From NCBI RefSeq assembly GCF_000709555.1, contig NZ_CP006873.1, positions 277,300 to 309,299 on the forward strand: a stretch of 32,000 nucleotides of DNA. Direction: 5' to 3'. The stretch's first letter is position 1; every line of letters begins with the position of its first letter. This stretch comes from Candidatus Saccharimonadota bacterium. Its GTDB lineage: Bacteria > Bacteroidota > Bacteroidia > Flavobacteriales > Blattabacteriaceae. A program made the position numbers and the translations under genes. Below the pieces are notes generated by a model. That model saw only the letters and a program-made list of their open reading frames with translations. It was not told the DNA's origin and made no database searches. Shown here in pieces: positions 12,945 through 13,917 of the stretch.

Positions 12945-13065
12945 TTCCTACACTATTTTTTTTTACATGAAGTAATCCTCTTTTTATGGTAAGCTTTCAC
13001 CTTTTTCTAAAATAGATATCTAACAATTGAAAAGAATTAGATGACGTAGCATGTCCACTTGAGAT
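12945..13065 (-). pseudogene. Possible tiny remnant of ATP synthase epsilon subunit gene
   Basis: Downstream of the atpD remnant the reverse strand reads ..IYEG*ISSGHATSSNSFQLLDIYF... This faintly resembles the AtpC N-terminus (..F.G.v.SV..PG..G.F.IL..H). The main support is position (atpD-atpC order). Similarity is weak. Confidence 0.25.
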
Positions 13066-13917
13066 TTATCCTTCATAAATTGTTTTATACTTTTTTTCTA
13101 CAATAACTTGTTGTATAGTTCCTTTAAGATTAAAGGCAACTTCAGGAATATGAACATCTAGAATCATGAAATGGGATCTTTAATGTCTACTAATTCCCTA
13201 GGAATTGTTCTGCTACGTTAAAAGGTTGAGAAAGAAAACGTTGCTTCTTCGCTTAGTTCATCCAGACCGAGATAATGTCTTGTAACTCGGTGTGCACAAC
13301 GATTTAAGTAGTTAATATTCTCGAAGTCGAGTCTACCTAAAGAAGAAATTTTTCTGTATAAAAAGTAGCTGTAATATCGTCGGCGTGAGAAACTATCCGT
13401 TCTTGCATTATACTCATTTAAGAGGATAAAGTGGGTTGATTACCTGCCTTACAAAAAATAGAACATCTCGTCCTTTACCACTGTCACGATAATATTCAGC
13501 TACGGAAAGGTTCAAAACTGCCTTAGAGCTTCTCTATCAACTCATTACCCAGATTTCACGAAGCAAATCATTACTCTCTCTTGTACGCGAGCCAACTCAA
13601 GCAAAGACCGAAATTCCTTGATAAGCTATATTATTTATTAGTTACTGAATTATAACAGTTTTTCCTACACCAGCATACCAATTTTTACGACCTTTGCATA
13701 AGGTTCAACTAGATCAATAACTTTCGTCATTGTAGAAAACTTGGGCGATGGTCCAACTACATTCAATAATCGCGACAGAAACAGTAATAGGCATTCCTAT
13801 CTTTAAACCATCAGTAGAATCCATGGTACTTCTAATATTAAATCTTTTTCTGAAGAAGAATTATTAAAAATGAGGACCTATGATTTGTATAATACTACCC
13901 TCTATTATTTCATACAT
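13066..13917 (-). pseudogene. atpD: Eroded ATP synthase F1 beta subunit gene
   Basis: Reverse-strand reading is colinear with AtpD. It begins [17 protein letters not shown] (ATG at complement 13915..13917), then [17 protein letters not shown], then [18 protein letters not shown]. A frameshift leads into [40 protein letters not shown], with Walker A at 13657..13674. Further on come MQERI, [13 protein letters not shown] (about 13201..13240) and PEVAFNLKGTIQQVIVEKK. There are many stops, frameshifts and internal deletions. About 850 bp remain of roughly 1.5 kb. Confidence 0.85.

What the first reader, a model, noticed from the sequence alone, without database searches (positions are those of the whole stretch)
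12945..13917. Catalytic ATP synthase beta subunit (atpD, with atpC) is a decaying pseudogene wedged between leuB and acpP
The roughly 1 kb untranslatable stretch downstream of leuB reads on the minus strand as AtpD from N- to C-terminus. The matches are [50 protein letters not shown], and then a frameshift into [37 protein letters not shown]. Further on come [13 protein letters not shown] and PEVAFNLKGTIQQVIVEKK. Stops, frameshifts and internal deletions leave about 850 of roughly 1500 bp. Walker A survives only out of frame (13657..13674). Beta is the catalytic subunit, so unless an intact paralog exists elsewhere this organism has no functional F1Fo ATP synthase. To my knowledge that state is reported for only a few extremely reduced symbionts. 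It would imply dependence on substrate-level phosphorylation or on host or co-symbiont energy supply. The good preservation of the motifs suggests a relatively recent inactivation.
Basis: partly seen in the sequence, partly recalled or inferred. Interest (0 to 1): 0.72.

Follow-up and report, generated by a model that had tools for sequence, protein, structure and literature searches.

The report
Decayed ATP synthase beta gene relic
The stretch between leuB and acpP is a real, heavily eroded remnant of the ATP synthase beta-subunit gene in the scale-insect symbiont Walczuchella, but the collapse of ATP synthase in this bacterium is already published and the gene died long ago, not recently.

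Summary
Window 13064-13917 (minus strand) is a colinear relic of atpD. Intact Bacteroidota AtpD proteins hit only this place (tblastn sum E about 1e-27). A frameshift-aware alignment retains 272 of 502 codons, with 230 codons deleted, at least 3 stop codons and about 12 frameshifts. The catalytic Glu is replaced and the Walker B Asp is deleted. The longest ORF is 39 aa.

The window is the published genome of Candidatus Walczuchella monophlebidarum from Llaveia axin axin (LLAX, 309,299 bp). Its 2014 paper reports atpA/B/G as pseudogenes, only atpF intact, and atpC/D/E/H "absent". A 2025 paper reports erosion of energy genes in all seven Walczuchella genomes.

So the loss of F1Fo is already known. 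The small addition is that atpD is not fully gone.

The "recent inactivation" claim is not supported. All seven genomes carry an orthologous relic in the same leuB-acpP spacer. Two identical nonsense codons and a frameshifting deletion are shared across clades, so the gene was already dead in their last common ancestor.

An atpC remnant is not detectable by sequence. Only synteny with Sulcia (atpD-atpC-acpP-fabF) suggests where it lay. A fabF relic sits downstream of acpP.

The parts
13064..13917 (-). psi-atpD: relic of the F1 beta-subunit gene. It runs from the ancestral ATG (13917) to the remnant of the C-terminal helix (PEVAFNLKGTIQQVI).
   Evidence: tblastn of intact AtpDs, sum E about 1e-27. 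Frameshift-aware alignment: 272 of 502 codons, 182 identical. NCBIfam and PDB hits. No ORF longer than 39 aa.
13657..13674 (-). Walker A (P-loop) remnant AGVGKT. The two leading Gly codons and the preceding LF were lost in a frameshifting deletion.
   Evidence: Sequence read directly; alignment.
13642..13644 (-). Nonsense codon TAA replacing the Glu of LIQELINNIA. The identical ATTCAGTAACTAA context occurs in LLAX, ICPU, ICSE, CRGE-like and CRMU-like relics.
13304..13306 (-). Nonsense codon TAA (STSRILTT*IVV). It is shared with an identical context by the two Drosicha symbiont genomes (DRCO, DRPI).
13597..13599 (-). LLAX-specific TGA stop (FA*VG). It is followed by GSRTRES, in which the catalytic Glu of GERTRE is replaced by Ser.
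   Evidence: the Icerya copy has GTA here. The residue role comes from general knowledge of F1 beta.
12930..13063 (-). Spacer between the end of psi-atpD and acpP. This is where atpC lies in Sulcia. No detectable AtpC similarity. The last ~30-60 nt before the acpP ATG are conserved among strains and may be the acpP leader or promoter (inferred).
   Evidence: Synteny. Negative AtpC tests. Conservation: 3 differences in 61 nt against ICPU, and the last 28 nt are invariant but for one position in four lineages compared.
12687..12929 (-). acpP, intact (80 aa).
   Evidence: NCBIfam acyl carrier protein, E 1e-31, above cutoff.
13926..15026 (-). leuB, intact. It is the last gene of leuA-leuC-leuD-leuB on the minus strand.
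   Evidence: TIGR00169, E 6e-127, above cutoff.
12244..12594 (-). psi-fabF relic downstream of acpP. It completes the ancestral atpD-atpC-acpP-fabF block seen intact in Sulcia CARI.
   Evidence: tblastn with Sulcia FabF, E 1.6e-9. Pfam Ketoacyl-synt_C, E 2.5e-8. Synteny.

Best explanation
Window 13064-13917 (minus strand) is a non-functional, vertically inherited relic of atpD in the genome of Candidatus Walczuchella monophlebidarum, the Llaveia axin axin symbiont. Ancestrally the locus read atpD-atpC-acpP-fabF, as it still does in Sulcia.

Once selection on the F1Fo ATP synthase was relaxed, atpD acquired nonsense mutations. This happened before the last common ancestor of the seven sequenced Walczuchella lineages. 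At that point the gene was still nearly full length.

Since then each lineage has independently removed different pieces by small deletions and accumulated substitutions at a neutral rate. Relics of 204-272 codons remain. LLAX keeps the largest one.

The relic makes no beta subunit. Its only plausible residual role is passive: it is spacer DNA transcribed or read through between leuB and acpP, and its last tens of bases may serve as the acpP leader (inferred, not shown).

The loss of ATP synthase and the inferred reliance on host-supplied ATP are taken from the literature. They were not shown here.
For: Homology and colinearity.

Disabling lesions:
- 230 of 502 codons are deleted, with at least 3 stops and 12 frameshifts.
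- Walker A is truncated, the catalytic Glu is replaced by Ser, and the Walker B Asp region is deleted.
- No ORF exceeds 39 aa.

Vertical origin: GC is 33.4%, like the genome. Sulcia CARI has atpD-atpC-acpP-fabF intact, and a fabF relic follows acpP here.

Identity of the genome: exact TyrS, LepA and Frr sequences equal AID37542, AID37528 and AID37533 on a 309,299-bp contig.

Orthologous relics are present in all seven genomes. Their union covers 436 of 502 reference residues.

Shared lesions: the TAA at 13642-13644 is shared by LLAX, Icerya and Crypticerya symbionts. The TAA at 13304-13306 is shared by LLAX and Drosicha symbionts. A 7-8 nt deletion before DELSEED is also shared. The neighbour-joining tree of leuA-leuB puts these groups on opposite sides of the deepest split.

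Neutral evolution: the divergence of shared codons between LLAX and ICPU is flat across codon positions (0.29, 0.22, 0.32). There are 21 indel runs per ~1 kb. Flanking genes are 95-98% identical, with a four-fold-site p of about 0.10-0.11.

Literature: PMC3971599 and PMC12188211.
Against: - I could not scan the whole LLAX chromosome. 'No intact atpD elsewhere' rests on the published annotation and on the absence of any closer AtpD in the protein search.
- Shared GAA-to-TAA changes could in principle be parallel under AT-biased mutation. Two sites plus a shared deletion make this unlikely.
- The tree is unrooted and has no outgroup. The argument was checked for every root position.
- Some blocks of the pairwise DNA alignment are misaligned, which inflates the divergence estimate.
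- No expression data were available.
Confidence: 0.95

Rival explanations
1. The gene was inactivated recently and specifically in this lineage. The good motif preservation would then reflect a short time since loss.
For: LLAX retains the largest and best-scoring relic: 272 codons and score 515, against 191-255 in the others. Several motifs are nearly intact.
Against: All seven Walczuchella genomes have a relic at the same locus. Identical nonsense codons and a frameshifting deletion are shared across clades. The relics are complementary, and their union covers 436 of 502 residues. This shows independent erosion of a gene that was already dead.
Confidence: 0.04
2. The frameshifts and stops are sequencing or assembly errors, for example at homopolymers, and the real gene is intact.
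For: 5 of the 12 frameshift points lie next to homopolymers of at least 5 nt. The 2014 paper cautions that homopolymer frameshifts may be tolerated.
Against: 7 of the 12 frameshifts are not at homopolymers. 230 codons are simply missing, and substitution-type stops are present. Six independently sequenced genomes show the same or deeper erosion with shared lesions.
Confidence: 0.01
3. The locus still yields a functional product. This could be through transcriptional slippage or programmed frameshifting, or as split peptides that assemble.
For: Slippage rescue at poly(A) tracts is known in other insect endosymbionts (cited in PMC3971599).
Against: The Walker B region, most of the N-terminal barrel and about 46% of the codons are absent, and the catalytic Glu is substituted. 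The longest ORF is 39 aa. Codon-position divergence is flat, so there is no purifying selection. The partner subunits atpA, atpB and atpG are themselves pseudogenes.
Confidence: 0.01
4. The relic persists because part of it has been co-opted, for example as the promoter or 5' leader of acpP or as an operon spacer, so it is not purely junk.
For: The ~60 nt upstream of acpP differ at only 3 of 61 positions between LLAX and ICPU. The psi-atpD stretch of the same alignment averages p of about 0.33. The last 28 nt are invariant but for one position in the four lineages aligned. All genes from leuA to acpP are co-oriented.
Against: 3 differences in 61 nt is not clearly below the four-fold-site rate of about 0.11. 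ICSE has deleted 25 nt inside this stretch. Promoter-like sites are not enriched over shuffles, at 12 against 9.0 +/- 3.4. This reading concerns only the 3' edge, not the atpD relic proper.
Confidence: 0.15

Closest known systems
Published ATP synthase decay in Candidatus Walczuchella monophlebidarum LLAX (Rosas-Perez et al. 2014, PMC3971599)
   Same: It is the same genome. The paper already states that atpA, atpB and atpG are pseudogenes and that only atpF looks conserved. Its comparison table scores ATP synthase as 'few subunits'.
   Different: That paper lists atpC, atpD, atpE and atpH (and fabF) as absent. Here an ~850-bp atpD relic and a fabF relic are shown to persist on either side of acpP.
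Genus-wide pseudogenization of energy metabolism in Walczuchella (Choi et al. 2025, PMC12188211)
   Same: Seven genomes were compared. Energy production genes are mostly lost or pseudogenized, and ATP is proposed to come from host mitochondria. Intergenic remnants were searched with Pseudofinder.
   Different: The main text does not mention atpD, and the supplement was not available. The shared-lesion dating of atpD death to before the common ancestor was worked out here.
Candidatus Uzinura diaspidicola (armoured-scale Flavobacteriales symbiont)
   Same: It is a related insect symbiont that lacks ATP synthase (Table 3 of PMC3971599).
   Different: In Uzinura the complex is reported as completely absent, together with the respiratory chain. 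Walczuchella LLAX still shows relics, and according to the 2014 paper it retains NADH dehydrogenase and a cbb3 oxidase.
Intact atpD-atpC-acpP-fabF locus of Candidatus Karelsulcia (Sulcia) muelleri CARI
   Same: The gene order and orientation around acpP are the same. AtpD identity to the relic is about 45% in the best HSP.
   Different: All four genes are intact in Sulcia. In the window only acpP survives.

Membership tests
F1Fo ATP synthase beta subunit (AtpD, TIGR01039 / PF00006) | Significant, colinear sequence similarity over the N-terminal barrel, the nucleotide-binding domain and the C-terminal domain | tested here: met
   tblastn sum E about 1e-27 with HSPs in reference order. The frameshift-aware alignment runs from residue 1 to 502.
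F1Fo ATP synthase beta subunit (AtpD, TIGR01039 / PF00006) | Score above the curated equivalog cutoff (462.85 bits) | tested here: not met
   103.6 bits for the stitched conceptual peptide.
F1Fo ATP synthase beta subunit (AtpD, TIGR01039 / PF00006) | Continuous open reading frame of about 460-500 codons | tested here: not met
   The longest ORF in 12930-13925 is 39 aa, and 36 aa on the gene's strand. At least 3 stops and 12 frameshifts.
F1Fo ATP synthase beta subunit (AtpD, TIGR01039 / PF00006) | Intact catalytic motifs: Walker A GGAGVGKT, catalytic Glu in GERTRE, Walker B Asp in LFVDN (residue roles from general knowledge of F1 beta) | tested here: not met
   Walker A is reduced to AGVGKT after a frameshifting deletion. 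GERTRE reads GSRTRE. The segment [24 protein letters not shown] is deleted.
Vertically inherited pseudogene (gene relic) | Orthologous position relative to an intact gene in a related genome | tested here: met
   Sulcia CARI has atpD-atpC-acpP-fabF. The window has psi-atpD, acpP and psi-fabF in the same order and orientation.
Vertically inherited pseudogene (gene relic) | Evolution without purifying selection | tested here: met
   Divergence is flat by codon position, at 0.29, 0.22 and 0.32. There are 21 indel runs between two strains. Flanking genes are 95-98% identical.
Vertically inherited pseudogene (gene relic) | Orthologous relics with shared disabling lesions in sister lineages | tested here: met
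   Seven genomes carry a relic. There are two shared TAA codons and a shared deletion.
ATP synthase epsilon subunit (AtpC, PF02823) | Detectable similarity to AtpC in the segment between psi-atpD and acpP | tested here: inconclusive
   No tblastn hit in 12930-13100 at E<=5. No Pfam hit at E<=1. In the frameshift-aware alignment, 1 of 100 shuffles reached the observed score against Chryseobacterium AtpC and 46 of 100 against Sulcia AtpC. There was no signal in the ICPU copy.
Slippage-rescued endosymbiont gene (frameshifts confined to homopolymer tracts) | All disabling lesions are single-base frameshifts in long poly(A) or poly(T) runs | tested here: not met
   7 of 12 frameshift points have no homopolymer of at least 5 nt nearby. 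There are also substitution stops and 230 missing codons.

The most novel reading that the evidence does not exclude
atpD was already inactivated in the common ancestor of all sequenced Walczuchella. The whole crown group, in hosts of four monophlebid genera, would then have lived without an F1Fo ATP synthase, while at least LLAX is reported to keep parts of a respiratory chain. The seven complementary relics would form a natural time series for measuring deletion and substitution rates in a neutrally decaying gene within tiny genomes. They could also help reconstruct the ancestral gene, since 436 of 502 residues are recoverable.
Probability: 0.7. Interest if true: 0.3.

Novelty: already known. 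Interest (0 to 1): 0.15.

Why it matters
The finding matters little beyond annotation. Walczuchella's lack of a working ATP synthase and its presumed reliance on host ATP were published in 2014 and 2025. Three refinements come out of this work:
- atpD and fabF are not truly absent from the LLAX genome. Both persist as relics flanking acpP.
- Shared nonsense codons place the death of atpD before the divergence of all seven sequenced strains. This corrects the impression of a recent loss.
- The independently eroded relics illustrate how slowly dead genes are removed from these genomes.

Tried and rejected
- Exact-sequence look-ups of the window's AcpP and LeuD found nothing. LeuC, LeuA and Era were also not found, probably because the annotated start codons differ. 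TyrS, LepA and Frr then identified the genome.
- tblastn of the stitched peptide against the first 83 fetched loci found no atpD next to leuB in free-living Bacteroidota. It also missed the ICPU relic at E<=1e-3.
- The supplementary tables of Choi et al. 2025 are not held. I could not check whether their Pseudofinder run already lists this relic.
- atpC was tested with tblastn using two AtpC proteins, Pfam at E<=1, and a shuffle-controlled frameshift alignment. No convincing signal emerged.
- The sigma-70 promoter scan gave no enrichment, and Bacteroidota promoters are not covered by that tool.
- Rfam found only four tRNAs in the window and nothing in 31100-32000.
- I considered and rejected three readings: horizontal origin or a co-symbiont chimera (GC, synteny and orthologous relics argue against it), sequencing error, and slippage rescue.
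A whole-chromosome scan for other atp genes was therefore not possible.

Full report
**1. The observation**

These are [100 protein letters not shown] and PEVAFNLKGTIQQVIVEKK.

My stitched peptide was assembled with prior knowledge of AtpD, so I also ran an unbiased test. Three intact AtpD proteins were retrieved: Chryseobacterium P0084, Sulcia CARI P0045 and the Geopemphigus symbiont P0019. They were compared by tblastn with the whole window. They hit only 13090-13917 on the minus strand, as colinear HSPs in three different frames, with a sum E of 1e-26 to 1e-27.

The stitched peptide matches NCBIfam TIGR01039 (atpD) at E 1.1e-29. Its score is only 103.6 bits against a curated cutoff of 462.85. 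It also matches 58 solved beta-subunit sequences.

A frameshift-aware protein-to-DNA alignment that I wrote gives the following against P0084:
- 272 matched codons, of which 182 are identical
- 230 of 502 reference residues deleted
- three stop codons within matched codons, plus two in an insertion
- twelve frameshift events

The relic runs from the ancestral ATG at 13917 to about 13064. The flanks are intact leuB (13926-15026) and acpP (12687-12929). No ORF in the interval exceeds 39 aa.

**2. State of the catalytic machinery**

The roles of the residues below come from general knowledge of F1 beta.
The preceding LFGG was removed by a frameshifting deletion.
- GERTRE reads GSRTRE, so the catalytic Glu is replaced by Ser. 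A TGA lies just upstream at 13597-13599.
- The Walker B segment (DNIFRF...) is deleted.
- Most of the N-terminal barrel and the Bacteroidota-specific insertion are gone.
- Only 5 of the 12 frameshift points adjoin a homopolymer of at least 5 nt.

Sequencing error or slippage rescue therefore cannot restore a gene.

**3. Whose genome this is**

A LeuB-based scan of species-representative genomes returned one close relative at 97% identity. It is Candidatus Walczuchella endosymbiont of Icerya purchasi (L001). Flanking genes are 92-96% identical at the DNA level.

Exact-sequence look-up then showed that the window's TyrS, LepA and Frr are AID37542, AID37528 and AID37533 of Candidatus Walczuchella monophlebidarum, on a 309,299-bp contig. 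This is the LLAX genome from Llaveia axin axin.

The consecutive accession numbers leave exactly eight protein IDs between frr and tyrS. That matches the eight intact genes I find there, so the atpD and fabF relics carry no protein ID. This last point is an inference.

**4. What is already published**

Rosas-Perez et al. [quoted passage not shown] They list atpCDEH and fabF among genes retained in Sulcia but absent from Walczuchella. Their comparison table scores ATP synthase as 'few subunits' in Walczuchella and 'absent' in Uzinura.

Choi et al. 2025 (PMC12188211) sequenced six more genomes. They report heavy loss and pseudogenization of energy-production genes and propose that ATP comes from host mitochondria. 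They searched intergenic regions for remnants with Pseudofinder. Their supplement is not held.

The published whole-genome annotation also answers the 'intact paralog elsewhere?' caveat. I could not scan the chromosome myself.

**5. Origin of the relic**

In Sulcia muelleri CARI the gene order is atpD-atpC-acpP-fabF, all intact. In the window, acpP is preceded by psi-atpD. It is followed by a fabF relic at 12244-12594 (tblastn E 1.6e-9; Pfam Ketoacyl-synt_C E 2.5e-8).

Together with a GC content of 33.4%, equal to the genomic background, this shows vertical descent of an ancestral block in which only acpP survived.

**6. atpC**

The 134 bp between the end of psi-atpD and acpP is where atpC would lie. 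The tests gave:
- no tblastn match to Chryseobacterium or Sulcia AtpC at E<=5
- no Pfam match at E<=1
- a frameshift-aware alignment that beats shuffles for one reference only (1 of 100 shuffles reached it) and not for the other (46 of 100), with nothing in the Icerya copy

An atpC remnant is therefore not demonstrable. Only its former position can be inferred.

**7. Age of the inactivation**

Using AsnS and TyrS orthologues, I fetched the same locus from all seven Walczuchella genomes or near-identical assemblies. These are:
- LLAX (the window)
- ICPU (L001)
- ICSE (L085)
- CRGE-like (L086)
- CRMU-like (L089)
- DRCO (L087)
- DRPI (L088)

Every one has a leuB-acpP spacer of 712-990 bp holding a colinear atpD relic of 204-272 codons.

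The relics are complementary. The Drosicha copies keep the N-terminus and the [12 protein letters not shown] segment but lack the whole nucleotide-binding core. The Icerya and Crypticerya copies keep parts of the core that LLAX has lost. The union covers 436 of 502 reference residues. The gene was thus close to full length when the lineages split, and it has since been whittled down independently.

It was already dead at that point:
- The TAA replacing Glu in LIQELINNIA (window 13642-13644) sits in an identical ATTCAGTAACTAA context in LLAX, ICPU, ICSE, CRGE-like and CRMU-like.
- A second TAA (13304-13306, STSRILTT*IVV) is shared with an identical context by LLAX and both Drosicha genomes.
- A 7-8 nt deletion removing the IAIL codons before DELSEED is shared by LLAX and the Icerya/Crypticerya group.

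A neighbour-joining tree of the leuA-leuB block groups (LLAX,(DRCO,DRPI)) against (ICSE,ICPU,(CRMU,CRGE)). Wherever the root is placed, at least one of the shared stops spans it. Parsimony therefore places a dead atpD in the common ancestor.

The evolution looks neutral:
- Shared codons of LLAX and ICPU differ at 0.29, 0.22 and 0.32 per site at codon positions 1, 2 and 3.
- The two spacers differ by 21 indel runs.
- Flanking genes are 95-98% identical, with a four-fold-site divergence of about 0.10-0.11.

LLAX merely preserves the best relic.

**8. How it works**

The relic most likely does nothing as a gene. It is DNA in the course of deletional decay after selection on ATP synthase was relaxed.

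A passive role is possible for its 3' edge. The ~60 nt before acpP differ at only 3 positions between LLAX and ICPU. The last 28 nt are invariant but for one position in the four lineages aligned. This could be the acpP leader or promoter.

The evidence for that is weak. The stretch is not clearly slower than four-fold sites, ICSE has a 25-nt deletion there, and promoter-like sites are not enriched.

**9. Verdict**

It is an ordinary pseudogene in a genome already known for pseudogene richness and for a degraded ATP synthase.

Novelty is 'already known'. The minor refinements are that atpD and fabF are relics rather than absent, and that the loss is ancestral.

Noticed in passing
window 12244-12594 (minus strand): A fabF (beta-ketoacyl-ACP synthase II) relic lies downstream of acpP. 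The 2014 genome paper lists fabF as absent from this genome.
   Followed up: partly
window 22250-22665 (plus strand): A weak fragment of the NAD kinase C-terminal domain (Pfam E 5e-4, below cutoff) sits in the gap between the pseudouridine synthase gene and tRNA-Phe. DRCO and DRPI have a 35-aa NAD_kinase fragment at the same place. It is probably another relic.
   Followed up: partly
window 31188-32000: About 800 bp after leuS has no ORF of note, no Pfam hit in six frames and no Rfam hit at E<=0.1. GC skew is strongly positive. It is unexplained and may be another eroded gene.
   Followed up: partly
L085 (ICSE) about 15960-16130: A ~28-nt unit (TGATTTGCTTCGAGAAATTCTTACGTAC) is tandemly expanded about six times inside the psi-atpD relic of the Icerya seychellarum symbiont. 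The other strains lack this expansion.
   Followed up: no
window 7139-8557: A full-length asnS is present (NF003037, E 7e-181, above cutoff). The 2014 paper on this genome says the asparagine tRNA synthetase is missing. Accession numbering suggests the gene is annotated.
   Followed up: partly
window 1760-3556 and 24423-25673: lepA (EF4) and rseP are intact in LLAX. lepA is fragmentary or absent in L084, L085 and L086. rseP is split into two fragments in DRCO and DRPI. This fits the ongoing, lineage-specific erosion described in 2025.
   Followed up: no
window 1 to about 1450 (minus strand): A sufB gene runs off the left end of the window, so it was not listed as an ORF. The sufBCD-sufS cluster is seen in the related loci.
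   Followed up: no
window 16996-18159: The leuA ORF is only 387 aa and matches positions 1-383 of ~516-residue 2-isopropylmalate synthase models. The C-terminal regulatory domain is missing. The length is the same in all strains examined.
   Followed up: no
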